53,350 bases of DNA, from contig NC_057718.1 in NCBI RefSeq assembly GCF_004010195.1, positions 75,681,504 through 75,734,853 on the forward strand, written 5' to 3'. Shown piece by piece: positions 1 through 53,350 of the stretch. This stretch comes from Chiloscyllium plagiosum (Eukaryota). The position numbers and the translations under genes are program-made. The first letter of the stretch is position 1. Each line of letters starts with the position of its first letter. Below the pieces are notes generated by a model. It did not search any database. It had not been told where the DNA came from and worked only from the letters and a program-made list of their open reading frames with translations.

Positions 1-202
1 GTCTAGATTAGAGTGGTGCTGGAAAAGCACAGCAGGTCAGGCAGCATCCAAGGAGCAGGAAAATCGAGGTTTCATGCTAAAGTCCTTCATTAGGAATAGA
101 GGCTCTATTCCTGATGAAGGGCTTTTGCCGAAATGACGATTTTCCTGCTCCTCGGATGCTGCCTGACCTGCTGTGCTTTTCCAGCACCACTCTAATCTAG
201 AC
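1..202. mobile_element. Penelope-derived fold-back element, family A (cut by window edge)
   Basis: 1-~100 is a near-perfect inverted repeat of ~103-202 (gtctagattagagtggtgctgg... / ...ccagcaccactctaatctagac), with a decayed hammerhead motif in each arm (ctgatgaagggcttttgccgaaa at 111-133). Confidence 0.8.
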
Positions 203-372
203 ACAGATGTTGGAACTGAGCCTTTTTTTTAACTCAGCCTTAGTTGAAAATAAATTCATTTATATCACACAGAAATTTATTGAGTTTGTATTCCTGGTCT
301 CTGTTGCATTGGTAGGTGGCGTCAGCTGGTTGTTACTGGGAATTCCTGAAGCTATCTTCAGGACCTTGAGCT

Positions 373-521
373 GGAAATGTGTTGCTGGAAAAGCGCAGCA
401 GGTCAGGCAGCATCCAGGGAACAGGAGAATCGATGTTCCCTGGATGCTGCCTGACCTGCTGCGCTTTTCCAGCAACACATTTCCAGCTCTGATCTCCAGC
501 ATCTGCAGACCTCACTTTCTC
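373..521 (+). mobile_element. Penelope-derived fold-back element, family A, 17-bp TSD
   Basis: Perfect ~55-bp inverted arms, ends ...ccagcatctgcagacctcactttctcc. Flanked by cttcaggaccttgagct at 356-372 and 522-538. Confidence 0.8.
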
Positions 522-1309
522 CTTCAGGACCTTGAGCTCAAGCATGATAAGTGGTCAAAATTTCCTTTTCTGTTGAATGATCACTTTCCAACAATGTTGA
601 AAAGATTGTTAAAGAAAGTCAGGTGAGGGCAGAATCAGGTTGAGTTGTATTGTCCGCCCTCATAATGGAAAAAGAAGCAGCCAACTCAGAGTTGCATGAG
701 AAAAATGATCACTTAGTACCTTAGATGTAGTAGACACCAGAGAAGCCCACCAGACAGAAATTTGAAGCAAATCATTTTAAAAAACAATAGACATGTGAAT
801 CAAAAGATGATATAGTATTTTTTCATAATTATTTAAAGAGTCAACACTACTTGAGGGGAGGAAGAAAAAATGTAACAGGACCCTTTATAAGACTCAGCCA
901 ATTTTCTTGCAACTCTTTGACCTTCAACCTTCTTGCTGATCTGGGATGGATCAGCAATTGTCCAAATGCAAGTCTTTGTCCTTTTTTTTCCATACGTTAT
1001 GATTCAGCTGAAGCATTTCTACTTGCTCTTATTTCTCTTGATGACTATGGTGATTATCCCAATTATCATTGCTTTGTGATCTATTGTTTAAGACAAAGGT
1101 GTGGTGACTTTATTATGGCTAACCAGCATTGTATGCAATAGCCCTGATGGGGACCAGACCAGGTCTCTGAAGAAACTTATTGCTGTAAAAAGTGTTAGGA
1201 TTTGAAAGGATTCAGTCTGAGTTGTGCTCACAATGGCATATAGTGATATTATGCAGACTTGGGCAGGAGAACAATTCTGGATCTCCAAAGAAATGGACGT
1301 ATCAAGTCT

Positions 1310-1514
1310 AAAGATGTGCAGATTAGGTGGATTGGCCATGCTAAGTGCCCATAGTATCCAGGAATATGCAGGTTAAGTGGATTAGCCGTGGGAAATATGG
1401 AGTGACAGGAATAGGATGGGCGATGGGTCTGGTTGGGATGCTCCTCAGAGGGTCTGGGTGGACTTGGTGGGCCAAATGGCCTGCTTCTACACTGTAGGGA
1501 GTCTATGATTCTAT
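1310..1514 (+). mobile_element. HE1/V-SINE, 5'-truncated
   Basis: aaagatgtgcag-ttaggtggattggccatgctaa ... gggccaaatggcctgcttctacactgtaggga-tctatgattctatg tail. Confidence 0.8.
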
Positions 1515-1736
1515 GAGTGTGGCACTGGAAAAGCACAGCAGGTCAGGCAGCATCCGAGGAGCAGGAGCGTCGACGGTTCGGGCATAATCCCTTCATCAGG
1601 AATGGTTTTCCTGATGAGGTGCTTATTCCCGAAACGTCGACTTTCCTGATCCTTGTATACTGCCTGATGGGCTGTTATTTTCCAGCGCCACACTTTTTGA
1701 CTCTGATCTCCAGCATCTGCAGTCCTCACTTTCTCC
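1515..1736 (+). mobile_element. Penelope-derived fold-back element, family A, inserted in a SINE tail
   Basis: Inverted arms around 1601-1608. Hammerhead-like ctgatgaggtgcttattcccgaaacgtc at 1611-1638. Flanked by ctatgattctat on both sides. Confidence 0.8.
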
Positions 1737-1968
1737 TATGATTCTATCAAATAAGACTCCCTCAGTTTTAACAACAATATCTATAATAGCAATGTAACGT
1801 GAACATGATGGCTATTGGTCAATAAATTACATCTTGTTTAAGGCAAGATCCCCTTATTGCAACTGACCATGTGTTTTTTTCTCTACCACACCAGAACAGG
1901 CAACCCTTCAGATTCAAACCTTAAAGAAGGATGGTGGCAGAAAATCTACGTGATATAGTTTCCATCAA

Positions 1969-2271
1969 GTGGCATGGTGGCTCAGTGGTTAGCATTACTG
2001 CCTCACAGCATCAGGGACTTGGGTTCAATTCCTATCTCGGGTGACTGTCTGTGTGGAGTTTGCACATTCTCCTTGTGTCTGCGTGAGTTTCCTCCCAAAA
2101 TCCAAAAAAAGTGCCAGTTAGGTAAAGTGGTCATGCTAAATTGCCCATAGTGTTCAGTGCATTAATCAGGGGTAAATATAGGGGAGGGGATATGTCTGGG
2201 TGGGTTACTCTTCAAAGAGTCGGTGTAGACTTGTTAGGCCCGTTTCCATACTGTATGGAAGCTAATCTAAT
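1969..2271 (+). mobile_element. HE1/V-SINE
   Basis: tRNA-derived head (tggctcagtgg A box, ggttcaattcc B box), V-domain tgtgtggagtttgcacattctcc, taatctaat tail. Confidence 0.85.
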
Positions 2272-3394
2272 GTCAGAGACGATGAGCCATCATATAGTGA
2301 GAAACGATACAGATTTATTTTGACTGCCCATGTAATTTGATGAACAGTGGCACGGATTCGAGTGAGCTTTAAAGTAATCTCCAGACATAGCTTTAAGAAG
2401 GCTAGTTGTCCAGACAGTCTGCAGTTGGGAAAGCTGCATATTCAAAAACAACTGCAGAAGAGTAACTGATGGTAAGATTCAACAAGCCAAAATCCAAAAA
2501 CAATGGAAAAATGCATTTCAGACTTGGTATGAGACAGTGTGAGTGAGATCATATACGGAAATAGTCATACTTGTCACACTTCAAACAGATTGCATAGATG
2601 CTGAATAACAGTAGAGGCAGACCTGAGACAAGGTTCATTTGGTGAGCAAACAAACACCAGTGGCTGCGTGAGTAAAGTTCAAATCCCTGGTGGACAAGAA
2701 GAAAAGTATATAAAAATATAGGCTGAGAAAACTATAAGAAAGTTCTTACAGCGCAAAGTGAGCACTGCCACCATTGCATGTGACTACCATGAGGCATGGC
2801 TACAGTAAGGGAAATTAAGAGTCACAGAAGTAAATTAAAAATAAGGTTGCAGCAGCAAGAACATCACAAAGTCCCAATTAAAATAATTATGGGGCACTTT
2901 AGAAGCTGAGGCAGGCAAAAGCTAATGGAAAAGAATGTAAGAAGATTACTGAGGCTACAGAGGAAAGTTAGAGATCAGCTATTTATACCTTAGCCAAAGC
3001 AGGACAAACTTGTTAAGAACATAGACAGTGAGACTCATCCAGGGTAAAAAACAATTAGAAATCAACAGCATCATCCACTGCACTGCAGACAACACAAATC
3101 AACTAGTGAAATACATTAAAGAGAATAAGATTCATCCTTTTGAACTATAAAAAGCATAATTCATTTGGTAAATCCTGGAAATTTTAGAGTTGGGACAAAT
3201 AGAATATAGATTGCACACCTCAGAAAAGGTAGTTCTTAAGATACAGAATTGTTTCCAAACTAGATACTAAATCAGAATCTGAACGAGCAAACGCACTCAG
3301 GTTAGATGGGCTTCAGATTGGTTTCACAGGGCAGTGCAACATCGAGGGCCAAAGGGCCTGTACTGCACTGTAATGTTCTATGTTCACTTTTAGA

Positions 3395-3715
3395 GTTTAG
3401 AATCCCTACAGTGTGAAAAATGGCCATTTGACCCAATAAGTCCACACCAACCCTCTAAAGAGTAACCCATCCAGACCCATTCCCCCATATTTCCCCCTTA
3501 CTAATGTATCTAGCCTATACATCCCTGAACACTATGGGCAATTTAGCATGGCCAATTCACCTAACCTGCACATCTTTGGATAGTGGGAAGAAATCCATAT
3601 AGACACAGGACGAATGTGCAAACTCCACACAGACAGTTACCCAAGGTTGGAATTAAATCCAGGTCCCTGGTGCTGTGAAGCAGCAGTGCTAACTACTGAG
3701 CCACTATACCACCCT
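3395..3715 (-). mobile_element. HE1/V-SINE
   Basis: Reverse complement of the same SINE (atttagcatggccaattcacctaacctgcacatctttgga; tgtgcaaactccacacagacag). Confidence 0.85.
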
Positions 3716-5134
3716 GTATTCAAGTGGAACAAAGCTGATGATGTTGTCATTAAACTATACGTACAAGAAAAATAGGTACTTTTGAAGAAGTTTTTCAAAC
3801 TTTGACAATTATTTTAACTGTAGGATGAATATATTTTCTGAAAGAGCAAGACTTAACAGAAGAGTTGAGCATTCAGTAAAATTTGTTAATAACCCTTACT
3901 GATAATGGAAAAATGTAACTTATGGAGCCTTGAAATCAGAGTTCATAAGAGACAAAATTAGCGACAAATTGTTGTTATTGTCAGATTTATTATAGAAGAT
4001 CTGACTAACATCTTATACACTATCTCTCCACAAGTGTTTCTCCATTATTAATCCTTATATATTGATCTAATTACATAGAGGTCCAGAAGCATCATAGTTC
4101 AACCCTACAAGAGAAGAGCAACCTTATCACAGGAAATCAGATTACTTGATGCTGGACTTGCTATTTTCCACTGCTCTCACTGTGTTTTCGCTGTCTCAGT
4201 GCCACTTTTACCTCTACTGCTGGTCTCGCAGTTCCCCATTGACCCCCCCACTTTGTTCTCACCATCAACATGCTGCTTTTATTCCCAATGCCAATCTTGC
4301 TTTTCCTCTGCTGCCCAGCTGTATTCTTGCTACTTCTGCACTATATTATAAAGAATAAAGGTTTACTCACGTGGATTGAAGATAAGTTGCATATGCCACC
4401 ATGAAAAGTGGGAAGATAAACGTTCACAGATTCAGAATGCATTCAAAAAGAAATTGCCTAGCTCAAAGGTCCAGGATGCTTGCAAAAACAGAAAATGGCC
4501 TGGTTCAGAGGTCTAGGATTTCATAAAAAGGTTCCTGTTTCAACAGGGCACCCATCCTCTGTGAAGGAAATTCGGGTAATTGAATATCCTCCAGACTCTG
4601 CTATGAGCAATTGCCTGGTTCAGCCAGAAACATGTCCTCTGCAAAGGAAATTCATGAGATTAAAGTTCCCACAGATAAGGTAATAGAGCAGATGTCTTTT
4701 CAGCAGGAAAGCTTAAAGTTGACAGGAACTTTATAGTCTTCTTACTGTCATGAATTGAATCAAGATCAACAGTCTTCAAACCAAAGACTTAGCTATTTTC
4801 CAAAGTGCTCTTCAGTAAAGTAGCAAAACCATTGGATCACTTGTAATGCCAAACACGTGGATAGAGATTGAGTATTGGTAAATTTAATTATATCAATATA
4901 TAAGGATTAATAATGGATAAACACTTGAGGAGAGATAGTGTATAAGATGTTAGACACTGAAGGGGTTAATGCTGAGGAGTGCATTAAGCACTGCACAACG
5001 TGATGATGTCATATGGACTTGGATAGGAGAATGGCTTTGGATCTCAAAGGACATCTCCTTCATAGGCATGTAACAATGTCTATTATACCAATTTTGCTTC
5101 TATCCGATTGCTGTTGGAGAATAAACTACATCTT

Positions 5135-5484
5135 AGAATCCTAGAATCTGAACAATTTGGAGAGAGGCCATTCAGCCCAGTGAGTCCGCACTGACCTGCC
5201 AAACAGCATCCGAGCCGAAGCCACACAAACTCAAACCCATCACCCTATCCCAGAATCCCACATTTACCTGGCTCATCCATCTAATCTGCACATTTTTGAG
5301 AAAACTGGAGCAACCGGTGGAAACCCAAAGAGAGACGGGAGAATGTGTAAACTCTAGACAGACAGTAATCCAAAGAGGTAAAAACAATGACTGCACTGAT
5401 CCAGACAGTAATCCAAGGCTGGAATCAAACCTAGGTCTCTGGTGTTCTGAGGCAGCAGTGGCAAGCACTGAGCCACTGTGCCAT
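5135..5484 (-). mobile_element. HE1/V-SINE (diverged) with a 28-bp internal insertion
   Basis: SINE head at the right end (gaggcagcagtggcaagcactgagccactgtgcc). Insertion 5374-5401 flanked by cagacagtaatccaa. Confidence 0.75.
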
Positions 5485-10283: not shown

Positions 10284-10911
10284 TCTAGATTAGATTACTT
10301 ACAGTGTGGAAACAGGCCCTTCGGCCCAACAAGTCCACACTGACCCACNNNNNNNNNNNNNNNNNNNNNNNNNNNNNNNNNNNNNNNNNNNNNNNNNNNN
10401 NNNNNNNNNNNNNNNNNNNNNNNNNNNNNNNNNNNNNNNNNNNNNNNNNNNNNNNNNNNNNNNNNNNNNNNNNNNNNNNNNNNNNNNNNNNNNNNNNNNN
10501 NNNNNNNNNNNNNNNNNNNNNNNNNNNNNNNNNNNNNNNNNNNNNNNNNNNNNNNNNNNNNNNNNNNNNNNNNNNNNNNNNNNNNNNNNNNNNNNNNNNN
10601 NNNNNNNNNNNNNNNNNNNNNNNNNNNNNNNNNNNNNNNNNNNNNNNNNNNNNNNNNNNNNNNNNNNNNNNNNNNNNNNNNNNNNNNNNNNNNNNNNNNN
10701 NNNNNNNNNNNNNNNNNNNNNNNNNNNNNNNNNNNNNNNNNNNNNNNNNNNNNNNNNNNNNNNNNNNNNNNNNNNNNNNNNNNNNNNNNNNNNNNNNNNN
10801 NNNNNNNNNNNNNNNNNNNNNNNNNNNNNNNNNNNNNNNNNNNNNNNNNNNCCCGGGTCTCTGGCGCTGTGAGGCAGCAGTGCTAACCACTGTGCCACCG
10901 TGCCGCCCACA
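10284..10911 (-). mobile_element. Young HE1/V-SINE spanning an assembly gap
   Basis: Tail tagattagattacttacagtgtggaaacaggcc on the left and head ...ccactgtgccaccgtgccgcccaca on the right of the N run. Confidence 0.8.
10349..10851. other. Assembly gap (503 N)
   Basis: Run of N. Confidence 1.
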
Positions 10912-11490: not shown

Positions 11491-11991
11491 CTAAAATTCT
11501 GAAAAAAAATTTGATTAATTTAATCAATGATTTTGTGATACCTGTTTGAGGGAAGAAACATGATGAGATATAATTGTGTTTTGGCTGGTCTATTATTCCT
11601 CACCTCACTTTATGATTTATTTATATTTTATTATTTGGATATTTGGTAGGAGTTATTAAAGCCTGTCATCATAATTTACAGGACAATTAGGTGTTGTAAC
11701 ACTTTTCAGGTATGGCTCTTTTGTATGACATGACAGATATTTCTAAAATGAGACATGTTCTCTTTTGCTTCTTGTAAAGGGTGTATATGTTATTTTTTAG
11801 GAACAGTCTATTTATTTTCTTCTTCCTACTATTCCAGTTCAGATTAAATTGAAATATAAAATATAAAATATAATTTATTGCTGTTACTATTCATTCATTG
11901 GCTCTTTTTTTTCTGATACTCCAAGGATCCAAATGGCCTCATTTGAAGTTAATGAATGGTCACTAGTTCTCTCAATTTGAGGCTGAATTTG

Positions 11992-12250
11992 ATGTGGAGG
12001 TGCCAATGTTGGACTGGGGTGCGAGGGGGAGCAAAGTCTGAAGTCACACAACACCAGGTTATAGTCCCACAGGTTTATCTGAAATCACTCAGGCTTTCAA
12101 AGCACAGCTGTTCATCAGGTACAGTGAAAGAGCAGGGTACATGTGTGCCCTAATCTCTCACAGCACCTGACAAAGGGGCTGCACTCCAAACATCTATGCC
12201 ATTTCAGATAAACCTGTCGGACTATAACCTGGTGTTGTGTGACTTCAGAC
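11992..12250. mobile_element. Penelope-derived fold-back element, family B, 14-bp TSD
   Basis: Arms agtctgaagtcacacaacaccaggttatagtcc.../...ggactataacctggtgttgtgtgacttcagact with decayed hammerhead remnants inside. TSD tgaggctgaatttg (11978-11991) / tgaggctgagtttg (12251-12264). Confidence 0.75.
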
Positions 12251-13119: not shown

Positions 13120-14170
13120 GTCATAAAGTTATGGAAACAGACCCTTCAGTCCAACTTGTCCATGCTGACCAGATATTTTAAATTAATCTAGTCCCATTTG
13201 CCAGCACTTGGCCCATATCTTTCTAAACCCTTCCTATTCATGTACCCATCCAGGTGCTTTTTAAATGTGGAAGAGTGTGGTGCTGGAAATGCACAGCCGG
13301 TCAGGCAGCATCCAAGGAGCAGGACAGTTGACTTTTTGAGCAGACTTTTTTTGTCAACATTCCTGATGAAGAGCTTATGCTCAAAACGTCGATTCTCCTG
13401 CTCCTCAGATGCTGCCTGACTGGCGATTCTGATCCCCAGCATCTGCAATCCTCATTTCTCCTAGTTTTTTAAATGTTGTAATTGTACCAGCTTCCACCAC
13501 TTCCTCTGGTAGCTTATTCCATACGTGCACCACCCTCTGCATAAAAATGTTGCCCCTTAAGTCCATTTGTTTTCCCCTTTCACCTTAAAACTATGCCTTC
13601 TAGTTTCCCCTACCATGGGAAAAAGACTTTGGCTATTCACCCTATCCACGCCCCTCATGATTTGATAAAACTCTATAAGATCACTCCTCAGCCTCCAATA
13701 ATACAGGGAACATAACCCCAGCCTATTCAGCCTCTCCCTGTAGCTCAAATCCTCCAACCCTGGCAACATCCTTGTAAATCTTTTCTGCACCATTTCAAGT
13801 TTAACCACATCCTTCCTATAGCAGGGGGACTAGAATTAAACCCAGCATTCCAAAAGTAGCCAAATTAATGTCCTGCACAGCTGCAACATGTCCTCCCAAC
13901 TCCTATACTCAATACACTGACCAAAAAGGTAAGCGTTCCAAATGCCTTGTTCACTACCTTGTCCAACTATGATCCCACCTTCAAGGAACTATGAATTTTG
14001 TATCCAAATAGCTAGTCTCCCTGGATTCTATTTGATCTAATCTTGCTAAATAATCTACCACATGAAACCTTGTCGAACACATCCAAATAGCTAGCTCTCC
14101 CTGGATTCCATGTGACCTATCCTTGCTAACCAGTCTACCATGTGGAACCTTGTTGAATGCTTTGCTCAAG
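13120..14170 (-). mobile_element. CR1 LINE 3' fragment with internal insertion and ~80-bp duplication
   Basis: ORFs 13557-13808 (VQKRFTRMLPGLEDLSYRERL) and 13981-14169 (SKAFNKVPHGRL). atccaaatagctag repeated at 14002 and 14081. Confidence 0.85.
13269..13465 (+). mobile_element. Penelope-derived fold-back element, family A, 11-bp TSD, inside CR1
   Basis: Hammerhead-like ctgatgaagagcttatgctcaaaacgtc at 13363-13390. TSD tttttaaatgt at 13258-13268 and 13466-13476. Confidence 0.8.
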
Positions 14171-14993: not shown

Positions 14994-16116
14994 AACAAAG
15001 TCAGTTCAATACTATAAGGGGATACATAATCCCTACTGATACAGGCCAAAAAGACTCCTTCTGTATTCTGACCATTCTGTCATTTTGTTAGTTTAACCCA
15101 TTACCTCAAACCAATATGATTTACAAAAACTTCATTTCTAAAACGTATGATATTCCAACAATCTTTTGACTAAACAGAAGCCTAGATATCTTGTGAGCCT
15201 CAGAAATAAACACCTAAGAGACAAATTTAACTTAATTGCAACATTACTTAACCCCGAAATTCCTTAGTAAATTAAACACACAATTTCGTCTTCACCACTG
15301 TACTGACAAACAAACAAATATTCTGATGAATATAATGGGAACTGGACTGAACAGACCCTATCCCTCCAAAAAAGTATGGAATAATTACGCACATGCAGTG
15401 TGTAATTATTCCATACTCACTCAGTATGATGCAGGCAGCACAGCAACGTCACGTTTCTTGGTCATTACAATAACTGTGACACATAACTATCAACTAATCT
15501 GATACAGATACTGCTCAATTCATCACATTCCCATTACTGAACTACAGACAGGTAATCAGGATTGAAAACTAGCATTATAGCTATCACATCCTCATTCACC
15601 TATCACCATCGCAAACCTTACAAAAAATGTCATACCTTGTAGACTATTTAACTACAGTAAGCCTATCAACCAAACAAATTGCACTGATACAAGCAGATTG
15701 TTTCATGTCTGGTGGTCTGTTATAGGGACAGTATGATAGGGTGACAGGATTCTTGATGCCACCACTAGTTTTCTACCAATTCCTTTACTGTTGCCTGTGA
15801 CTCATTTAGCCTAGACTGCTGTCAACCATACCAAAAGATGCACCTAAAGCAGGACCTTCTCTGGCCTAGGTTGCTTATGACTGTCCTCCATCTTAGATTC
15901 CTACTGAAAGGCAGCAGCCTTCTAATAGCCATAATGTAAACACTATGCATGAGCCCCTGGACTGAGTAAGGTACATGGAAGATAGGCACTAAGAAATTTA
16001 AGAGTGTGATTACTTTTGGAATGTTTACTTTGTGTTCTCTTTTACTGTCAAAGGACAATGTGATATCATTGATGGAAGAACAGTAAGATTTGATGCTGTG
16101 GTGAATGGGAAATTTA

Positions 16117-16237
16117 TGATTTGGAGATGCCGGTGTTGGACTGGGGTGTACAAAATTAAAAATCACACAACACCAGGTTATAGTCCAACAGGTTTAATTG
16201 GAAGCACACTAGCTTTCGGAGCGACGCTCCTTCATCA
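16117..16237 (-). mobile_element. Penelope-derived short element, family B (single arm), 10-bp TSD
   Basis: Same sequence as the 11992 and 50012 arms. gggaaattta at 16107-16116 and 16238-16247. Confidence 0.75.
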
Positions 16238-16238
16238 G
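16206..16238 (-). ncRNA. Minimal hammerhead ribozyme motif (intact core and stem II)
   Basis: Minus strand reads CUGAUGA-A-GGAGC-GUC-GCUCC-GAAA-GC-UA-GUG: conserved core, 5-bp stem II, self-complementary AGCU as stem III. The 5' strand of stem I appears lost at the insertion junction. Confidence 0.65.
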
Positions 16239-16350
16239 GGAAATTTAGGTTGAGTTTATTGTCGTCATACTTGGAAGCTTTCCGCATAGATAGCCTGATT
16301 TCAATTCAACTGTCTAAACTGCTCCACCTTCTTTTCCTCCTTCTCCCTTG

Positions 16351-16548
16351 GAGAAAGTGAGGACTGCAGATGCTGGAGATCAGGTCAAGAGTGTGGTGCT
16401 GGAAAAGCACAGCAGGCCAGGCAGCATCGGAGAAGCAGGAGAATCAATGTTTTGGGCATAAGCCCAATGTTGTTTCCTAATAATGGGCTTATGCCAGAAA
16501 CGTTGATTCTCCTGCTACTCTGATGCTTTTCCAGCACCACACTCTGGA
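16351..16548 (-). mobile_element. Penelope-derived fold-back element, family A, 14-bp TSD
   Basis: gagaaagtgaggactgcagatgctgg terminus, inverted arms. TSD ctccttctcccttg (16337-16350) / ctccttcgcccttg (16549-16562). Confidence 0.8.
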
Positions 16549-33347: not shown

Positions 33348-33432
33348 GTCAAAATCACATGACACCAAGTTATAGTCCAACAGGCTTATTTGGAATCACA
33401 AGCTTTCGGAGCGTTGCTTCTTCGTCGGTGAA
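33348..33432 (-). mobile_element. Penelope-derived family B fragment with decayed hammerhead
   Basis: aaaatcacatgacaccaagttatagtccaacagg...caagctttcggagcgttgcttcttcgtcggtg. Confidence 0.7.
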
Positions 33433-39214: not shown

Positions 39215-41345
39215 AAAGCCAAAAAAAATGCGGATACTGTAAATCAAAAACAAAAAAACAGAAATTGCTAGTAACGCTCAGCAGATCTAACAGCATCTGT
39301 GGAGAGAAATCAGAGTTAATGTTTTGAGTCAAGTGATCCTTCCTCAGAACTGATGGTAGCTAGGAAAATGTTGGTTTATATGTGGAAGATAGGTGTGGGG
39401 GAGGGGGTAAGGAGTAAATGATAGTTGGGGGGGGTGGGGGGTAGAGCCCAAAGAGTGAAAAGAACAGTTGGTCAGGAAAAGGAACGGGTAACAATACAGC
39501 TGGAAGGGTGAATAGCTGTTAATACGGGTTGTTAGTGGCTAACAATGGATTGTGTTAACAAGGCCTGACATGTGGGGTTGGGAAAAAGACATGGGGAGCT
39601 CAAGTCCTAAAATAATTGAACTCAATATTGAGTCTGGAGAGCTGAAGGGTCTTCATGCTGACTATCAGTTGCTGTTCTTTCAGGTTGTACTGAGCTTCGC
39701 TGGAACTCTGCAACAAGCCTGAGACAGAGATGACAACCTGGGAACAGGGTGGTGTGTTGAAGTGGTAGGCAACTGGAAGCTCAGGGTCTTTTTTGCGCAT
39801 AGGATGTAGGTGTTCTGCAAAGCCATTACCCAGTCTATGCTTCGTTTTCCCCAATTCAGAAGAGATCACATTGTGAGCAGTAAATGCAGTAAACTAGATT
39901 GCATGAAATGCAGGTTGACGTTGCTTGACGTGGAAGGTATGTTTGGACCCTTGGATACTGAAGAGGGACGAAGTAAATAGACAGATAGTACACCTTCTGT
40001 GGTTGCAGGAGAAAGTGCCTTGGGGCTGCGGGGGTGTGTTGGGAGTGAAGGAAGAGTGCACCAGGGTGTCCCAGAGAGAATGGTCCCTGTAGAAGGCTGA
40101 CAAAGGAGGGGAGCGGAATATGTGTATGGTGGTAGCATCTCGTTGGAGGTGGCAGAGATGGCTGCTAATAATCGTATGGATGTAGATGTTGGTAGGATGG
40201 TAGGTGAGGACAAGGGGGACCTTATTACTATTGCGAGAGGTAAGAGAGGGTGTAAGGACCAAAGTGCAGGAAATAGGTCGGACCAGACTGAGGTGCTGGG
40301 GATTCCTGGGTTGAGGAAGATGGTGGACATTTCAGAGGCTCCCGTGTCAAAGTTGGTATCATCAAAATAGATGCAGTGGAGATGGAGGAACTGGGAGATT
40401 GGAATAGAGACTTTACAGGAAGCAGGGTGCGAGGATGTGTAGTCAAGATAACTGTGGAAGTCGCTGGATTTATAGTGAATATTGGTGACCAGAAATGGAA
40501 ACATGGATGTTGAGAAAGGGAAGAGAGAAGTCGGAGATGGACCAGGGGAAAGTGAGAATGGAGTGGAAATTTGAAGTGAAATTGATAAACCTTTCCAATT
40601 CTAGATGAGAGATGGAAGCAGCACCATTTATATCATCGATATATCAAAGAAAGATTTGTGGTTGGGGGCCTCAATTGGACTGGAACAAAGAATGTTCCAT
40701 GTACATCACAAAGAGACGGGCATAACTAGGGCCCATGCATGTGTTCATGGCCACCCCTCTGTCCTGACGAAAATGAGAGGAGGTAAAAGAGAAATTGTTC
40801 AGGGTGAAGATGAGCTCGGCCAAGTGAAGGAGGGTGGTAGTGGATGGGAATTGCTCAGGCCTTTGTTCCAGGGAGAAACAGGGAGCCCTGAGACCATCCT
40901 GGTGGGGAATGGACGTGTAAAGGGATTGCATGTCAATGGTGAAGAGGAGGCAGCTAGATCCTGCAAACTGGAAATTCTCAGCAGGGACTGGACCAGGGGA
41001 GAAATGACTGAGTCAAGGTAGGAAGAGTTAAGCTCCATGGGGCAGGAGCAGGCAGAAACAATGGGTGTGTCCATGCAGTCCTGTTTGTGAACTTTGGGAA
41101 GGAAGTGGAAGTGAGCCATGTGGGGTTGGGGGACAGTCAACCTGGAGGCAGTGGCGGAGGGAATCACCAGAAGAAATGAAGTTGGTGACTGTAGTTTACA
41201 CAATAGCCTGATGTTCCATCTTGGGATCATGGTTTGGGGGGGAATAGGAGGAGGTATCAGAGACCTAGCAATCAGTAGTGTAGAGATCGGTCCACCAGAC
41301 TACAACAGAACCATTCTTATTGGCTGGTTTAATAATAAAGTCAGG
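39215..41345 (-). mobile_element. Penelope-like retroelement (RT + GIY-YIG), pseudogenised
   Basis: FHFLPKVHK...PIVSACSCP, SLYTSIPHQDGL, LNNFSF...GVAM...MGPSYA, YLDYTSSHP, GKTKHRLGNGFAEHL...PVAYHFN. Terminus with decayed hammerhead near 39315-39348. Confidence 0.88.
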
Positions 41346-41419
41346 GTTGGATCTGACAGCATGGAATGCAGTTGACTGAGTATTCCCCAGAACCATTGTT
41401 GACAAGGCCATCAGCTGGG

Positions 41420-41563
41420 TCCAGTCTGTCTCATACACTTCAGACCTTACCCTGTCTTTCCTCCCGTAACAGCGATAGGGTCCCCCTTGTCCTCACCTAC
41501 CATCTCAGCAACATCCATATCCAGAGGATCATTAGCTGCCATTTCTGACACCTCCAGCAAGAT
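41420..41563 (+). mobile_element. Inverted Penelope segment
   Basis: SSRNSDRVPLVLTYH...IQRIISCHF is a diverged inverted copy of 40135-40285 (SRNSNKVPLVLTYH). Confidence 0.8.
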
Positions 41564-41918
41564 GGGAAGAGTCTTCAGAACTGTTTAGGTGATCAGCTTT
41601 TTGCATTAATTAGCATGCCATGAATTCTCATTAACGCTCCAGCCACTGGAATGACACTGAGGAAAGCAAATCTGATGGACAAAAATGGAAACCTGCATAT
41701 TCGTAAATGCAAATACATATGAGCCAAATACCTAGTGAGGTAGACTGCTTCCTCCAACCTCTGGTGAGTACAAATCTTTTCACGAACTTGGATCCTTCAT
41801 AAGCAAGTAATTTTATATGCAACCTCTTATAGCAAGAAAGGTGAAGTCTGACTGGGTCCAGCAGACCATGAGCTATCTCAGTCATATGTACTTTTGGTTG
41901 TTCTTGTTACATCGCTAA

Positions 41919-43215: not shown

Positions 43216-43404
43216 ATAATTTTGCACATGGCAGCATCATGAAGGGGAAAGACAGTCATTGGAAGATACACCTTACCATGGAGAGATTGCTGCAGCGCAG
43301 ACTTTCATCGAACGCATGAGCAACTTGGCAAGGGCACAAAGGATGGCTCGACCCTGTCAATGTTTCAAATTGAAAGCTTGATTAACAAGCGTATTAAACA
43401 AATG

Positions 43405-44135
43405 CTGATTCCTGGGATGGCAGGACTGATGTAAAAAGAAGAGTGGATTGGTAAGGTCCAAATTTACTAGAGTTTCAAAACGTGAGGTGAGATCTTGTAG
43501 AAACCTATAAAGTTCGAACAGGACTATGCAGGAAGGAAGTTCCCAAAACCAGGGAGTCAGAACAAGGAGTCACAGTGTAGGGATACAGGATAGCACTGGA
43601 ATGAGGGGAAATTTCTTCACACAGAGAGTGGTGAGCCTATGGAACTCTCTGAAACTGAAAGTGGTCGAAGACAAAACATTGAATATTTTCAAGAAGGACT
43701 TAGGTCTAGAGGGATCAAAGGGTATATAGAGAAAACTGGAACAGGTATTGAGTTGGATGATTGCTATGATCATATTGATTGGCAGAGCAGGCTTGAAGGG
43801 CCAAATGGCCCACTCCAGCTCTGTTTTTACAGAATCATAGAATCATTGAATTTTACAATAGAGAAGGAGGCCATTCACCCATCATGTCTGCACCAGCTCC
43901 AGAAAGAGCTACCCAGCTAGTCCATTTCTCCAGCGCTATCCATCACCCTCTAAATTCATCACTTTCAAATATATATCCAGCTCTTTTCGAAACCTCCTGT
44001 GGAATCCACTCCACCATTTTCCCAGGCAGCAGATTCCAAATCCTAACAACCCACTGAGTAAAGCAATTTCCCCTCAATTCACTCCTGGCTGTCTTGCAGA
44101 TAATCTTGACATTTTGACTCCTAGTCACTGACATT
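43405..44135. mobile_element. Two tail-to-tail CR1 3' fragments (+ 43405-43828; - 43830-44135)
   Basis: MRGNFFTQRVVSLWNSL (+) and LRGNCFTQWVVRIWNLLP (-). Confidence 0.75.
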
Positions 44136-44199
44136 CTGTATCATTCCTGGTATTTCTTCACTAAACAGTACTATCATGCCAGATGTTAATCAATTAAAT

Positions 44200-46684: not shown

Positions 46685-47140
46685 TCATAGAGTGAAACAG
46701 TCATACGGCAGGGAAACAGACCCTTCTGTCCAACTTGTCCATGCTGACCAGACATCGTAATCTAACATAGTCCATTTGCCAGCAATTGGCCCATATATCC
46801 CTGAACCCCTGCTATTCATATACCCATCCAGGTGCCTCTTAAATGTTGTAATTGTACAAGACTCTGCCACTTCCTCCGGCAGCTCATTTCATATAGGCAC
46901 TGTGCTCTGCATGAAACGGTTAACTCTTGGGTACTTTATAAAAAACTTTCCTTTCTCACCTTAAACCTATGCCTTCTAGTTTTGGACTCACCCACTACAG
47001 GAAAACGACCCAGGCTATTCAACCTAACTATGCCCCTCATAATTTTCTAGACCTTTATAAGGTCACCTCTCAGCCCTTGACACTCCACAGAAAAAAGCCC
47101 AGCCTATTCAGCCTTTCCCTATGACTCAAACCCTCCAGCC
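46685..47140 (-). mobile_element. CR1 3' fragment
   Basis: gtcatagagt tail, FKRHLDGYMN. Confidence 0.85.
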
Positions 47141-48412
47141 TTCTTCCCATTCTCCAAGCAAATGCTGCACATAATTATTTTCCCTTCAATAGTATGCATT
47201 GTCCAATCCTAAAATCCATGCACAAATGTCTGGCACATACATGCTACATTCCTCCTTGCTCTAATGTTTACAGAGCATTCTATAATGCCTTTCATTACCT
47301 CAGAATATTCTAAAACAACCTATATAGGGGAGTACTTTTACAATGTACTCACTTGTAAATTTAATGTCGGAAACACACATGCCGAGTTACTCACAGCAAG
47401 CTCCCACAAACACCAATGTAATAATAATCCGTTAATGTTTTAAAGGATGTTAGTTGAGTGATGCATTTTGGGCAGGACACAAGGGAAAATTCCCTGATGT
47501 CAAACAAAAGTGGTAGCACTGAACATACATAACAAAGCAAGCAATATGGTGAGACTAGTTCTTGGAAAAGCCCATCCAGAAGTAAGAATAAAGCAATGAT
47601 CAAAAGCCACTAATGATAATATAACCCACGTGAAGAGAAATTCTGATCTCTTGTCATATATCCTGTTTTTTTGTGTTCTTGCCATAATCAGTGATTGATT
47701 TTGGAACACATTTGGAGTTGGTTTTTGAACTGAAAACCATGCTAACATTTTAAGATAAGTTAGGTAGATGGAAAGAAGAATGCAATATTCAGGAATACGA
47801 TGTGTCTATGGGATTGAAAACTCCATTCACGCCAATCTTTGTGGGGGATAATCATCAAAACCGACAGTGTAATCATGTTTCTGTGTCATAATTTAATCAT
47901 AAAGTTGCAGCTTTTTAGTTTGAACCAATTAATCTTTATTGTTCACATTGGAGGAAGTCTGTCCTGTGTGTTTAAAAACTCACTGTTACCTATAAATTGG
48001 GGAACCTAAATGCTGAAGGGCCGAGATCAAGGGGGTGTAGATATTAGATTAAATGATGCAATTTGTTTGGTATGATCGCAAATATAAAAGATGTTGAACT
48101 CTTTTTAGGCCTTCAGCTACTAACGGGATCATATTTTCCAAACACCTGTCTCAGTTATAGTCCTCCTTAATGTTTTGCTAATCTAATATTGAAACAAAAC
48201 ATGTGTGTCTGAGCCTATGATAGCCAAATCACACTTAACTCCCTTTGATATCATAGACAATATTTAACAAGGTTGAGTTAAAGACAAAAATAAGTTTAAT
48301 GGACAACAGTGATGGTCAAGATTTCAGATTGTCACATTTCATGGTGAAACCATGAGACTTTGCTATATCTGACAATCAGGCTACTTGTCTTGATGCATTG
48401 TCCTCTGCTCAG

Positions 48413-48579
48413 TTTGCCAGGAAGCCGTCTGGGAAGCATTTCGGATTTTCTTGGACAGAATTCCAGAGAATGAAGAGTACCAGCAATGGGTCAATATTTG
48501 TCAGCGAGAAACACATTATCTATTCCAGATTGGGCAAAACTTCAGTGAATCCCAAGAACATCTAACCATGGTTCAAAAG
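48413..48579 (+). CDS. IMPG1: IMPG1-like coding exon (putative exon 3, 167 bp)
   Basis: Acceptor tcctctgctcAG, donor AAG|GTAAGG. Encodes (V)[55 protein letters not shown], the hallmark IMPG1/IMPG2 N-terminal block, in frame with the previous exon. Confidence 0.95.
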
Positions 48580-48834
48580 GTAAGGAATCAACTTTGAACA
48601 GAGACAGTCTTGGATGCTAACTCATTTTGTGCAAGTTTTACTCACAGCTTTCCACAATAATGAGCATTGAGATTTAAAATATTCACATCAATGATATTCT
48701 AACATTTTAATATTACACTGATATGAAATTCAGTCATATTAAATGTAAGAATCCAATTTGCCTTGTAGATTTTTCCATATCATTATTACACTTTCTTAAA
48801 AGATTAAAAATGATGGTTTTCCATTGCTTCACAG

Positions 48835-48869
48835 AGACTGCGTATCCAAGATAGTGATCTTCAACCAAG
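48835..48869 (+). CDS. IMPG1: IMPG1-like micro-exon (putative exon 4, 35 bp)
   Basis: ccattgcttcacAG acceptor, AAG|GTAAGC donor. Encodes RLRIQDSDLQP plus 2 nt, phase 0/2, at the position of the short IMPG1 exon. Confidence 0.85.
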
Positions 48870-49065
48870 GTAAGCAACAGATATGTTGTGGAAACCTATT
48901 GCATTAGGCCTTTTGCTACTGTTCGCTTCATCAAAAGTTGTCAAAAATTGTCACATTATCACAAAAATACCACAGAGCAGTATTTAGCTCTTGTGTTTCC
49001 ACACTTTCTATAAATATAACAATGTTCTGACTGAGTAATTGTGACGACTATGTAAATCCCAAACT

Positions 49066-49406
49066 GTGGGCGGCACGGTGGCAGTGGGCAGCACGGTGGC
49101 ACAGTGGTTAGCACTGCTGCCTCACAGCGCCAGAGACCCGGGTTCAATTCCCGCCTCAGGCGACTGACTGTGTGGAGTTTGCATGTTCTCCCCGTGTCTG
49201 CGTGGGTTTCCTCCGGGTGCTCCGGTTTCCTCCCACAGTCCAAAGATGTGCAGGTCAGGTGAATTGGCCATGCTAAATTGCCGTAGTGTTAGGTAAAGGG
49301 GTAAATGTAGGGGAATGGGTGGGTTGCGCTTCGGCGGGGCGGTGTGGACTTGTTGGGCCGAAGGGCCTGTTTCCACACTGTAAGTAATCTAATCTAATCT
49401 AATCTA
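49066..49406 (+). mobile_element. Young full-length HE1/V-SINE with duplicated 18-bp head
   Basis: gtgggc(g/a)gcacggtggca twice (49066-49101), then the canonical body and (taatc)4 tail. Confidence 0.92.
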
Positions 49407-49588
49407 AAATGAAGCAGGTCAAGATATTTTCATAACTGGGTATTAGCTCAAATTGAAGTGATTTATATTATTATTGTTTATATATGTAGTCCATATTAAG
49501 TGTCTTTTTGAATAATAACAAATGAGCTAAAATGAAATGACAATGTCAAATTTCTAATGTGTATCCCTTTCTCTGTTTGCTGAGCAAG

Positions 49589-49635
49589 TATTCCTGTGGA
49601 TAATCAGCCAGGTGAACTCACTACACTAACAGCAG
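49589..49635 (+). CDS. IMPG1: IMPG1-like micro-exon (putative exon 5, 47 bp)
   Basis: Pyrimidine tract cccttt ctctgtttgc followed by caAG, donor CAG|GTATTA. Phase 2/1 bridges the flanking exons and encodes (S)IPVDNQPGELTTLTA, similar to IMPG1 'EPGETIVIST'. Confidence 0.7.
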
Positions 49636-50011
49636 GTATTATTTCATGTCAACTTGTGTTATTTAATGTTTCACGTATAAACTGCAAAGCCTTTGAAAAT
49701 TGATTAAAAACCAAGGCTATTCAGCATCCTCATTAAGTAGATTTTCTTAATAATCTACTTGAATGGGAATGTCCCACTATATTTGAACTAGCCATTAGAA
49801 GATAAATGAGATGGACATGGGACGTATATAATAATAATTGGAGTTTTAAGAGAGGCAGAAAGGGTTCTGTGACTCACCTTTTGTTATCAAATTTATCTAT
49901 TTAATAAACTATCATGTCAGCACTCAAATTGGCAAAAATTCATGTGCATATATCTGATCTAGTAAGATCAAAGTGACTAAGGTATGTGTCATCACTTCAC
50001 CACTTGAATAT

Positions 50012-50201
50012 AGGTTAAAATCACACAACACCAGGTTATAGTCCAACAGGTTTATTCAGAGGCGCTAGCTTTCCAAGTGCTGCTGCTTCATCAGGTGGTT
50101 GTGGCTAAAGCTAGTGCCTCTGAATAAACCTGGTGGACTATAACCTGATGTTGTTTGATTTTTAACTTTGTCTACACCAGTCCAACACCTGCACCTTCGA
50201 G
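50012..50201 (+). mobile_element. Penelope-derived fold-back element, family B, 15-bp TSD
   Basis: ~60-bp inverted arms. TSD tcaccacttgaatat at 49997-50011 and 50202-50216. Confidence 0.8.
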
Positions 50202-50544
50202 TCACCACTTGAATATGGAGATTTGAAGGGCTGTTGTGGTGCAAATGGAAGTGTCCCAACCTCTGGACCATCAAGCCTGGGTTCAGGTCCCACTTTCTCC
50301 AGGGGTATTAAATTAATAGAGGTTTGAATTCCTGATTGGCTGACCTGTACTTTCTGTTTTTTTTTCTCAGATGGTATTGATTTCAAACAAGTGTATTATA
50401 ACTTGCTGTTGTTTTCTAGTTTCTATTGACAGGTAGCACCAGAATAATCTATAATAGTTATTCCTAGTAAGATATCAGGGTCGGTGGACACTTTGGGGCT
50501 GCAATCTTTGACCTTCCAGTTAATAAGCAGGTTTTCCTTTACTG

Positions 50545-50722
50545 AAGGTGCTGGAGAAACGTACCAAGTCTGGCAGTAACATGGCGCTTCTTCTAAAGAA
50601 GAGTCGTATTGGATGTGAAATGTAAACGTTCTCTCTCCATAGATGCTGCTAGACCTGCTGAGTTCCTCCAGCATTTTCTCTTTGAAGTTCAGATTTCCAG
50701 CATCTGCAGTATTTTGTTTTTA
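50545..50722 (+). mobile_element. Decayed Penelope-type terminus
   Basis: gatgctgctagacctgctgagttcctccagca...ccagcatctgcagtattttgtttt, similar to 39225-39305 in reverse. Confidence 0.6.
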
Positions 50723-50819
50723 CTCCGAGACTAATTCTATCAGTCAATTTTGTCATACAGCAAGACTTAAAGCATCAGGGTATCTTTCTCTAACTTCTGA
50801 TTGGTATCATTTTCTTCAG

Positions 50820-50911
50820 AGATCCCTGCTGTCCCAGTGTCAAAAACCACATCAATTCCAGACATTGTGGTCTCTAATGAGATTGTGAATGAAACTAAAA
50901 TTCCTGTTAAG
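50820..50911 (+). CDS. IMPG1: IMPG1-like coding exon (putative exon 6, 92 bp)
   Basis: ttttcttcAG acceptor, AAG|GTGAGA donor, phase 1/0. Encodes (E)IPAVPVSKTTSIPDIVVSNEIVNETKIPVK, similar to IMPG1 'NEILDNTLNDTKMP'. Confidence 0.85.
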
Positions 50912-51858
50912 GTGAGATTTGCAAAATTCAATTACTTATTAATCATGGTTTAGATGTGCTATAAAATGGTTCTGAACAAGCAATAAGTACACTGAGATAT
51001 GTTAGTCAGATTTGGATGAGCCAGAATTTAAATATTTACAAAATGCAAAATGGAAATCACGACAATTTTGTAAATTTACATAGACAATATATGTTGGCAG
51101 GCCAGACAGCAGAGTTCCAATCAATGTCTGTGTTTTTTAAATTCATTCACAGGATGAGGGTATCATTGCCTAGACCAGCATTCATTGCCTAACTCTAATT
51201 TGCCAGAGGGCAGTTAAGGTCTGGATTCACGTGTCAGCCAGACTAAATGGCATTTTCCTTCCCTAAAAGACATTAGTGGACATTTGAAGAAGGGGAATAA
51301 TTTGTTTTCATTGTCAACATAAACAAATCTTCTATTCCCACAACGGCTCAGTTGAAAAGTCAAGTCATAGACTGTAAAAAACAATCAGATTAATTAGAAA
51401 ACTGGTGAAAGTAATTAGAGATTACATTTTCTCAACAGTGGATGTGCATGTATTTCAGAGAAAATTTAAATGGACTGATGTTCCTTGATACTTAGTGTTT
51501 AATATCCACCCCTCCAGAATCTTAATATAATTCAAGTTTTGAAAATGTTTAATTTTCCTCGAGGTTTGCCTTATGTAAAGGTTAATTTTCTTCAAGATTG
51601 GTGCAGCTAGTTTCTTTTCTCCCCTGGTATATCTTCTAGGTTATAAGGACATTAACATTTATAATTTGATCAAACCTATCACTGCACTTGCAGAATTGTA
51701 AGTATCACAGAACATATTCTCTGCAAAGTAGGTATGAGGTGAAGAGATTCATTACTCGGTGGTGATGTCAACACTATAGTGGTAAATGTGCATTAAGTAT
51801 TTCCTTTTTTTAATAGCACATTCTATGTGATGGATCATATCCTTTCTATCTGCTTCAG

Positions 51859-52008
51859 GATCTGCATGTAACCAACATTGTCCCAGAGCAGTCATCAGAA
51901 CAGGTTGTGGAGTTCAGCATTAAACTCAACAATCAAAGTTATAGCAGAGAGTTGAGTGAGCCGAACTCACTCGAGTATCAGGAACTTATCCGAAGGTTTG
52001 AGATTCAG
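51859..52008 (+). CDS. IMPG1: IMPG1-like coding exon (putative exon 7, 150 bp), start of SEA domain 1, GC donor
   Basis: ctttctatctgcttcAG acceptor. Encodes DLHVTNIVPEQSSEQVVEFSIKLNNQSYSRELSEPNSLEYQELIRRFEIQ (SEA motif 'EL...S..YQEL'). Ends at CAG|GCAAGT. Confidence 0.9.
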
Positions 52009-52129
52009 GCAAGTTCGTTGAATATACTGACTTTTTGCTGTAAAAAAAGCTGCTCACTTTTCCATGTAGTGAAAATTGAAAAATGTAGTTCAGCTGAATT
52101 CATTGGCTGAAACATATATTCTTCTAATT

Positions 52130-52859
52130 ACAAAGAGATCTGGGTGTTCTTGTACACCAGCCAATGAAGGTAAGCATGCAGGTAAAGCAGGTAGTGAAGA
52201 AGGCTAATAGCATGCTGGCCTTCATAATAAGAGGAATTGAGTATAGAAGCAAAGAGGTTCTTCTGCAGCTGTACAGGGCCCTGGTGAGACCACACCTGGA
52301 GTACTGTGTGCAGTTCTGGTCTCCAAATTTGAGGAAAGACGTTCTGGCTATTTAGGGAGTGCAGCGTAGGTTCACGAGGTCAATTCCTGGAACGGCGGGA
52401 CTACCTTACACTGAAAAACTGGAGGGACTGGGCTTGTATACCCTTGAGTTTAGAAGACTGAGAGGGGATCTGATTGAGACAAATAAGTTTATTAAAGGAT
52501 TGGACACTTTGGAGGCAGGAAACATGTTTCCGATAATGGGTGAGTGCCGAACCAGAGGACACAGCTTAAAAATACGGGGTAGAACGTTTAGGACAGAGAT
52601 CAGGAGAAACTTCTTCACCCAGAGAGTGGTGGCTGTGTGGAATGCTCTGCCCCAGAGGGCAGTGGAGGCCCAGTCTCTGGGTTCATTTAAGAAAGAGTTG
52701 GATAGAGCTCTCAAGGATAGTGGAATCAAGGGTTAAGGAGATAAGGCAGGAACAGGATACTGATTAAGGATGATCAGCCATGATCATATTGAATGGTGGT
52801 GCAGGCTCGAAGGGCAGAATGGCCTACTCATGCATCTTTTGTCTATTGTCTATTGTCTA
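52130..52859 (+). mobile_element. Young CR1 3' fragment
   Basis: LYRALVRPHLEYCVQFWSP, FRRLRGDLIE, RNFFTQRVV; (tctattg)n tail. Confidence 0.9.
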
Positions 52860-53029
52860 ATTAAATTTTTGGGTTTTTGTCTCCATCTGAGAGTGATTAT
52901 CTCCCACCATCATTTAAAAGTTAGTGAGGGGACTGTAGCTTCCATTTGTACATTATTGCATGGTCCTGACAGCACAGAAATGGGCTATTCAGTCTAAATG
53001 TTCTGCACAAATCGACTCAACCTTACCTC

Positions 53030-53219
53030 TGTGGATAGCTGTATGGGTACCGGCTTTACCCATGGACCAATCCCTCTTCCACAGATACACTGGCACTCTC
53101 CCCACCTTTTCCTCTGCGACATTGATGACTGTATCAGCGCTGCCTTATGCTCCCACGAGGAGCTTGAAAAATTCATTCACTACTCCATCAGCTTCTACCC
53201 TGACCTCAAATTCACCTGG
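53030..53219 (+). mobile_element. Penelope RT fragment
   Basis: PHLFLCDIDDCI...ELEKFIHYSISFYPDLKFTW (RT catalytic xIDD region). Confidence 0.7.
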
Positions 53220-53350
53220 TAAAAACAATGACTGCAGATGCTGAAAACCAGATTCTGGATCAGTGGTGCTGGAAGAGCACAGCAATTCAGGCAGCATCCG
53301 AGGACAGGCAAAATTGACGTTTCGGGCAAAAGCCCTTCATCAGGAATAAA
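53220..53350 (-). mobile_element. Penelope-derived family A element (cut by window edge)
   Basis: Same terminus as 30786. Contains an intact hammerhead core. Confidence 0.8.
53312..53347 (-). ncRNA. Minimal hammerhead ribozyme motif (intact core and stem II)
   Basis: Minus strand reads uuc-CUGAUGA-A-GGGC-UUUU-GCCC-GAAA-C-GUC-aauu, with self-complementary ACGU as stem III. Stem I is weak. Confidence 0.65.

What the first reader, a model, noticed from the sequence alone, without database searches (positions are those of the whole stretch)
1..53350. Dispersed system of small fold-back retroelements carrying minimal hammerhead ribozymes
Seen: about a dozen 85-260 bp elements in two sequence families (A: 1, 373, 1515, 13269, 16351, 30786, 53220; B: 11992, 16117, 33348, 50012). 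Most have a unique end plus a long inverted duplication of variable length, and six have clear 10-17 bp TSDs. Most carry CUGAUGA-A-[stem II]-GAAA-[ACGU or AGCU]-H or a decayed version. Known: Penelope-like elements carry minimal type-I hammerheads in their termini, thought to act as dimers through a palindromic stem III, and they often insert with inverted 5' segments. Inference: these are non-coding, ribozyme-bearing hairpin elements mobilised by Penelope RT/GIY-YIG. They may be a poorly described non-autonomous shark family, or stereotyped abortive fold-back insertions.
Basis: partly seen in the sequence, partly recalled or inferred. Interest (0 to 1): 0.8.

Follow-up and report, generated by a model that had tools for sequence, protein, structure and literature searches.

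The report
Shark Penelope run-off hairpin stubs
The small hairpin repeats are real but are end-stubs of very abundant Penelope-like jumping genes in a shark-type genome, a known kind of element and not a separate ribozyme family; their shared stop point and a poly(A) site seen in RNA suggest that they are likely short run-off copies of the front end of the element's messenger RNA.

Summary
All 11 elements exist. Seven are head-to-head fold-backs, and 7 of 9 testable carry 12-17 bp TSDs. Every arm is the hammerhead-to-3'-end piece of a Penelope-like element (PLE); family A matches the end of a decayed RT-GIY-YIG element in the window. Only 2 of 11 keep an intact minimal hammerhead. They are not a non-autonomous unit: both fold junctions tested are rare genome-wide, while the arms match over 100,000 contigs. 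All 6 complete fold-backs have one tailed and one tail-less arm, the published PLE pattern. Twelve of 17 arms stop within 13 nt of the hammerhead's front edge. In one RNA run, family B is polyadenylated 22-64 nt before both 3' ends. Best reading (inferred): two primings per target, each copying the mRNA's 5' leader and running off its end. This scan already noted such elements in many shark windows, including run-off and poly(A) readings. New member of a known kind; interest 0.3.

The parts
1..202 (.). A1: head-to-head fold-back; both arms reach about 10 nt upstream of hammerhead C3; right arm tail-less; left end cut by window edge
373..521 (+). A373: tailed arm (+, 434-521) and tail-less inverted arm (373-430); no hammerhead core; perfect 17-bp TSD at 356-372 and 522-538
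1516..1735 (+). A1515: tailed arm (+) and tail-less arm (-), both reaching the hammerhead front edge; 14-bp TSD; junction at 0.3% of arm depth genome-wide
11991..12250 (-). B11990: tailed arm (-) and tail-less arm (+), about 35-40 nt unexplained centre; 14-bp TSD
13270..13463 (+). A13271: tailed arm (+, internal deletion) and tail-less arm (-); 13-bp TSD; sits inside a LINE-like repeat end
16117..16239 (-). B16117: single tailed arm with intact minimal hammerhead (C3 at 16238, predicted cut 16210/16209), ATTAAA hexamer 16198-16193, family poly(A) joins at 16181 and 16178, family 3' ends at 16156 and 16116/7; 12-bp TSD
16351..16548 (-). A16351: tailed arm (-, stops inside stem II) and tail-less arm (+); 14-bp TSD; junction at near single-locus depth
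30787..30872 (-). A30786: single tailed arm of a second A subfamily, stops 3' of the hammerhead; no TSD found
33348..33432 (-). B33348: single tail-less arm with decayed hammerhead; no TSD found
50013..50201 (+). B50012: tailed arm (+, starts inside the hammerhead) and longer tail-less arm (-); 17-bp TSD
53220..53350 (-). A53220: tailed arm with intact minimal hammerhead (C3 at 53343); cut by window edge; adjoins an old PLE RT fragment
39220..41447 (-). Decayed protein-coding PLE (RT, CX4CxxC linker, GIY-YIG) whose 3' end is an older relative of family A (39266-39348, E 5e-4 with a model of young A arms only)
50547..50725 (+).

Best explanation
[quoted passage not shown] Shown: TSDs, two fixed 3' ends per family, one tailed plus one tail-less arm, junctions that are not amplified, 5' ends clustered at the hammerhead's front edge, and a poly(A) site used in family B upstream of both 3' ends. 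Inferred: (1) staggered nicks 12-17 bp apart; (2) one strand primes at the distal start (tailed arm), the other at the proximal start 33-40 nt upstream (tail-less arm); (3) the template is the 5' leader of a pLTR-initiated mRNA, so copying ends after 85-135 nt at the RNA's 5' end; (4) the two cDNAs are joined head to head. The hammerhead is a passenger here and decays after insertion.
For: TSDs in 7 of 9. One tailed plus one tail-less arm in 6 of 6 complete fold-backs. Family B loose ends at the tail end and tail-less end are equal in number in two DNA runs of two organisms: 1532 vs 1463 and 1450 vs 1437, 40 nt apart. Neither arm is a subset of the other in 5 of 6: the tail-less arm reaches 2-33 nt further upstream while only the other has the tail (by eye). 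Arms of one element share 1-7 variants against the window majority. 12 of 17 arm 5' ends lie between -12 and +1 of C3 and none further upstream; p about 2e-8 per element under constant truncation risk, 6e-5 at three times that risk. RNA run X21: 551 and 446 of 5426 laid reads carry poly(T) loose ends at 16178 and 16181, 12-15 nt after the hexamer and before a GU-rich tract, 22-64 nt upstream of both 3' ends. In vitro, an anole PLE cuts and extends both strands and starts at two internal sites that bound the tail, 111-118 nt into the ORF (PMC11167929).
Against: No transcription start was measured; the stop could be an RT stall or an intron boundary (the D. virilis intron ends at helix I). 5' ends scatter over 13 nt, were called by eye on decayed copies (about 3 nt uncertainty), and 5 of 17 stop earlier. 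A non-templated G before the arm, which earlier notes read as a cap mark, is visible in at most 2 of 10 arms examined (A1 right arm; B50012 ambiguous), no more than chance. The poly(A) signal rests on one run of which about 2% was read; its sister run X22 laid 0 reads; the reads may be host transcripts ending in a B copy. No poly(A) site was listed for family A. No protein-coding parent of B or of young A was found; the A link to the coding copy is weak (E 5e-4). A central deletion in a perfect palindrome could also make arms unequal.
Confidence: 0.6

Rival explanations
1. Same PLE origin, but the inverted arm arises by self-priming or snap-back on one strand (the published proposal is self-priming on an antisense template), and the clustering of 5' ends reflects an RT stall at the structured hammerhead or a splice boundary, not the RNA's 5' end.
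For: Palindromes at inverted junctions were read as self-priming in PMC3846280. A1 has a perfect palindromic centre with a 1-nt loop. Arms share variants. In A1 and B11990 the inner parts differ more than the outer parts, so centres were altered after insertion.
Against: In 5 of 6 complete fold-backs each arm has sequence that the other lacks; snap-back needs an extra asymmetric deletion each time. The tail-less arm ends at a fixed family position next to the TSD, which priming at a second RNA site explains directly.
Confidence: 0.25
2. A non-autonomous, retrozyme- or SINE-like family: a short hairpin or monomer RNA with its own hammerhead is transcribed, self-processed and mobilised as a unit by PLE protein.
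For: Very high abundance (148,970 and 128,540 contigs laid on 581 bp); stereotyped length; hammerhead core and stem II conserved with variation listed in loop II; non-LTR retrozymes are reported from one chondrichthyan. A dedicated short monomer RNA is not excluded.
Against: All seven junctions differ; two tested are not amplified. No direct tandem repeats of the unit. Only 2 of 11 hammerheads intact; ends do not sit at the predicted cut (nearest: A373 at 2 nt upstream). Polyadenylated B RNAs span the predicted cut and continue upstream at least 24-27 nt, to the read-length limit.
Confidence: 0.1
3. MITEs (non-autonomous DNA transposons) with long terminal inverted repeats.
For: Terminal inverted arms of 50-100 bp with TSDs.
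Against: TSDs are long and variable (12-17 bp); the two ends differ by a tail; single-arm copies exist, one with a TSD; family A aligns with the 3' end of an RT-GIY-YIG element.
Confidence: 0.02

Closest known systems
Insertion units of canonical EN+ Penelope-like elements: pLTR, adjacent inverted 5'-truncated copy, optional 30-40 bp tail, TSD (PMC3846280 passages; PMC8557442 passages)
   Same: Head-to-head inverted arms, tail of 33-40 nt on one arm only, variable TSD, hammerhead in the terminal repeat.
   Different: Here the whole insertion is 85-260 bp with no coding sequence, and most arms stop at the hammerhead's front edge.
[quoted passage not shown]
   Same: Core boxes, extra base at 9/10.1, G10.1-C11.1, palindromic 15.2-16.2 with no loop 3, short helix I; that paper already notes dispersed single motifs and pairs 100-700 bp apart on opposite strands as truncated PLEs.
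   Different: Shark families are not named in the parts read; activity is untested here.
Poseidon of Anolis carolinensis in vitro (Frangieh et al. 2024, PMC11167929; parts 1-2 of 4 read)
   Same: Two internal RT start sites bounding the tail, about 110-120 nt downstream of the hammerhead; both strands cut and extended; hammerhead cleavage not needed for insertion.
   Different: The parts read do not connect both-strand priming to head-to-head stubs or discuss run-off or poly(A); TSDs here are not AT-enriched (60% vs 59% background).
Non-LTR retrozymes (PMC7229834 passages; bioRxiv 10.64898/2026.07.22.740005 part 1 and passages)
   Same: Short, non-coding, hammerhead-bearing, PLE-related.
   Different: Retrozymes are direct tandem repeats with a hammerhead in each unit; these are single or inverted arms with TSDs.

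Membership tests
EN+ Penelope-like element insertion | Terminal sequence belongs to an element encoding PLE RT plus C-terminal GIY-YIG | tested here: met
   Family A model (young arms only) hits the 3' end of the decayed RT-GIY-YIG copy at E 5e-4; an older relative, not the direct parent
EN+ Penelope-like element insertion | Same, for family B | tested here: inconclusive
   No coding parent in the window; none found in the metagenome scan; inferred from architecture
EN+ Penelope-like element insertion | Inverted 5'-truncated copy adjacent to the 5' end | tested here: met
   7 of 10 elements whose 5' side is in the window
EN+ Penelope-like element insertion | 30-40 bp tail on one end only | tested here: met
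   6 of 6 complete fold-backs; 33 nt in A and 39-40 nt in B
EN+ Penelope-like element insertion | Variable-length TSD | tested here: met
   7 of 9, 12-17 bp; no empty site was seen
Neptune clade (coding copy at 39220-41447) | [quoted passage not shown] | tested here: met
   Both read in the three-frame translation; definition from PMC8557442; shared with Nematis
Neptune clade (coding copy at 39220-41447) | RT phylogeny within Neptune | not tested
   No reference PLE set available; no tree built
Minimal type-I hammerhead (min-HHR) | Core boxes, paired stem II, palindromic 15.2-16.2, UH | tested here: met
   Intact in 2 of 11 elements vs 0.02 per shuffled window; stem II differs in sequence among A, B, old A and the Poseidon-type end while pairing
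Minimal type-I hammerhead (min-HHR) | Self-cleavage as a dimer | not testable with these tools
   Needs an assay; no pile-up of read ends was listed in RNA, which 3'-end libraries may not show
Non-LTR retrozyme | Direct tandem units each with a hammerhead | tested here: not met
   No tandem array of A or B in the window
Non-autonomous element amplified as a hairpin unit | Shared internal junction across many loci | tested here: not met
   7 different junctions; 2 of 7 laid on contigs, both rare
MITE | Symmetric TIRs at both termini and short fixed TSD | tested here: not met
   Asymmetric ends, 12-17 bp TSDs, single-arm copies

The most novel reading that the evidence does not exclude
The Penelope pLTR works like the R-U5 of an LTR element: transcription starts at the hammerhead's front edge, polyadenylation falls between the hammerhead and the two RT start sites, so a normal mRNA carries those start sites only in its 5' leader. 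Target-primed synthesis must then give a 85-135 nt strong-stop product, and full-length copying needs a jump to the repeated region at the RNA's 3' end or a read-through transcript. The shark stubs are the mass record of failed jumps, primed once from each target strand.
Probability: 0.35. Interest if true: 0.65.

Novelty: new member of a known kind. Interest (0 to 1): 0.3.

Why it matters
The PLE transposition cycle is still described as undefined (PMC8557442). If these stubs are run-off products primed from both strands, one very abundant natural data set would explain the inverted arm, the one-sided tail and the pLTR together, and would give sharp predictions for the existing in vitro system. 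For annotation, such hairpins should be filed as PLE ends, not as MITEs, microRNA hairpins (the Rfam near-hits) or a new ribozyme family.

Tried and rejected
No whole genome was held, so no genome-wide consensus or junction census was possible. Rfam scan: no hammerhead model hit; seven weak hits, five to miRNA hairpin models, all below gathering score. Pfam on seven ORF pieces did not recognise the PLE fragments; homolog search and tblastn did. Pattern scans: 0 hits in metagenome contigs; 9 hits in bacterial genomes, taken as chance and not examined. Run search listed no holder on record as RNA. X22 laid 0 reads. The 24-nt median loose end behind 16239 in RNA is not a transcription start: 67-69 + 61 + 24 is about the 150-nt read length. 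Family A's tail-less end count at 16384 (775) is confounded by an indel in that copy, and the loose ends at 1516, 1525, 1603 and 1604 by local mismatches, so they were not used to count ends. The joint 16207-16239 is not taken as proof of cutting because a 2-nt indel lies there. A helix joining the tail to the mid-pLTR appears in several folds, but z-scores run from +0.4 to -4.0 over 12 pieces and are weak for B; not claimed. Inner-versus-outer arm divergence for A373 and B50012 was dropped because those columns include non-homologous junction sequence. No AT enrichment in TSDs. Literature: 'Penelope' with 'twin priming' gave 3 papers, none on PLE insertions by title or abstract; 'Penelope-like, pLTR, polyadenylation' gave 2, one checked by passages and not about pLTR poly(A); shark searches and searches listed nothing on these families. 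Lunse et al. 2016 was not held. Subscription papers, Repbase, Dfam and supplements (none opened) may already describe these families.
Full report
Observation. Self-comparison of the window and family searches recover all 11 listed elements. Seven are head-to-head fold-backs, three are single arms and one runs off the window. With boundaries fixed by homology, 7 of the 9 elements with both flanks have TSDs of 12-17 bp, each at p 0.0007-0.0027 against 2932 random flank pairs. A strict minimal-hammerhead descriptor hits 2 of 11 elements and 0.02 sites per shuffled window, so the motif is real but mostly decayed. A373 and A30786 do not reach it. The host is a cartilaginous fish by inference: the named protein relatives of a retroelement in the window come from rays and a skate.

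What the arms are. Aligned in sense orientation, every arm is a piece of one 120-135 nt sequence per family: hammerhead, about 55-60 nt, then a tail. The window holds a decayed element at 39220-41447 with RT, a CX4CxxC linker and GIY-YIG, which fits Neptune or Nematis by the definitions in PMC8557442 (passages). A model built only from young A arms hits its 3' end at E 5e-4, so A is the terminus of a related PLE family. B has no coding partner in the window; its PLE status is inferred from the same anatomy. Laid on two DNA runs, 581 bp holding one A and one B element attracted 148,970 and 128,540 contigs. That is not a copy number, but it shows great abundance in two organisms.

Two fixed 3' ends. 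In 6 of 6 complete fold-backs one arm has the tail and the other stops 33 nt (A) or 39-40 nt (B) short. For B the genome-wide loose ends at the two positions are equal in number: 1532 vs 1463 and 1450 vs 1437 (the tool notes that some were not counted in X1). For A the count is confounded by an indel. This is the published PLE pattern of an inverted 5'-truncated copy with a 30-40 bp tail on one end (PMC3846280 and PMC8557442, passages). An anole PLE protein cuts and extends both strands and starts at two internal sites that bound the tail (PMC11167929, parts 1-2 of 4).

Not a mobile hairpin unit. The seven junctions all differ. Two were laid on contigs. At the A16351 centre, depth in X1 is 22-39 against about 420,000 in the arm. 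At the A1515 centre it is 1,360 against 428,647 in X1 and 1,970 against 594,576 in X11. Four listed contigs cross the A1515 centre, three of them with gaps of 3-9 nt, so other loci fold near the same place but not identically. There are no direct tandem units, which retrozymes require (passages). In predicted folds of the two-armed elements the hammerhead pairs with its own antisense copy.

How the second arm arises. By eye, with upstream reference from the loose-end lines, arm 5' ends relative to C3 are: A1 -10/-10, A373 +37/+27, A1515 -3/-5, A13271 -8/+1, A16351 +9/-3, B11990 -2/-12, B50012 +23/-10 (tailed/tail-less; A1's tail is off-window), and single arms +38, -1, -3. A53220 was left out because it is cut by the edge. 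In 5 of 6 complete fold-backs the tail-less arm reaches further upstream than the tailed arm, so neither is a copy of the other unless a later deletion is added. The arms share 1-7 variants against the window majority, so both came from the same template or subfamily, or were homogenised later. Two primings, one per target strand, explain this most simply. Self-priming, as proposed in PMC3846280, remains the main rival.

Why so short. Twelve of 17 ends lie in -12..+1 and none further upstream; TSDs bound the inserts, so longer arms were not missed, apart from the unexplained centre of B11990. With a constant truncation risk estimated from the five earlier stops, the chance is about 2e-8 counting 8 elements once, and 6e-5 at triple the risk. 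The model search found no longer young copy; 1 of 3 older A-related ends is attached to a long element. In RNA run X21, 551 and 446 of 5426 laid reads carry poly(T) joined at 16178 and 16181, 12-15 nt after the hexamer and just before a GU-rich tract; the sense sequence there is not A-rich. The hexamer is ATTAAA in this copy, and the variant giving AATAAA makes up 33-40% of DNA depth. This site lies 22-26 nt before the tail-less end and 61-64 nt before the tail end. These RNAs therefore lack both start sites at their 3' end, span the predicted cut and continue upstream to the read-length limit. I infer that the template of the stubs is the mRNA's 5' leader and that copying runs off its end. 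No start site was measured, the cap-G mark claimed in earlier notes is not evident here (at most 2 of 10 arms), and the RNA evidence is one run, about 2% read, possibly host transcripts.

Hammerhead. Stem II differs in sequence among A, B, old A and a Poseidon-type end at about 19760 while keeping its pairing, and positions 15.2-16.2 are palindromic. Among the variants listed for well-covered hammerhead positions, those that depart from an intact motif fall in loop II and N7 (131 and 29 rows not shown). This matches the min-HHR of PMC4209133 (parts 1-2 of 4), which already mentions pairs on opposite strands 100-700 bp apart. Cleavage was not tested, and arm ends do not mark the predicted cut.

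Novelty. The element class, motif and insertion shape are in print. I found no paper on these shark families, on both-strand priming as the cause of PLE inversions or on a pLTR poly(A) site in the searches, which cover open-access text only. Earlier notes of this scan report the same kind in at least 21 genomes, the run-off reading and a used poly(A) signal; they are unreviewed and not independent support. I recorded the two-arm reading before and the poly(A) position. Verdict: real, new member of a known kind, interest 0.3; the R-U5-like model has probability 0.35 and would deserve 0.65.

Noticed in passing
window:39220-41572: Decayed Neptune/Nematis-type PLE on the minus strand with an inverted internal ORF piece at 41383-41572 on the plus strand; the inverted piece does not reach the element's 3' end.
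   Followed up: partly
window:18739-19866: Decayed PLE on the plus strand (RT, GIY-YIG, no cysteine linker seen, so probably Poseidon-type) ending in a third, decayed hammerhead family at about 19760.
   Followed up: partly
window:53028-53219: Old PLE RT fragment directly adjoining the tail end of A53220, a PLE stub in or beside another PLE.
   Followed up: partly
window:16116 and 16350 (joints): Contigs join the 3' end of family B to the 3' end of family A or to another B end in opposite orientation (55 and 57 contigs for 16116-16350). May reflect re-insertion at PLE ends; letters between the ends are not given.
   Followed up: no
window:1-202 and 11991-12250: Outer arms are nearly identical while the hammerhead part differs (A1: 1 of 65 vs 7 of 27; B11990: 5 of 55 vs 12 of 28); three other fold-backs show no such contrast. 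Could be arm-to-arm conversion or survival of palindromes with damaged centres.
   Followed up: partly
window:12122-12160: Unexplained 35-40 nt centre of B11990 containing its own small hairpin.
   Followed up: no
window:30900-31061: 18-bp tandem array, 6.6 copies, 30-50 bp from the A30786 stub.
   Followed up: no
window:15373-15417: Isolated 45-bp near-perfect palindrome unrelated to families A and B.
   Followed up: no
window:23176-26224: LINE with RT and endonuclease Pfam hits on the minus strand, with several related 3' fragments elsewhere; assembly gap at 10349-10851.
   Followed up: no
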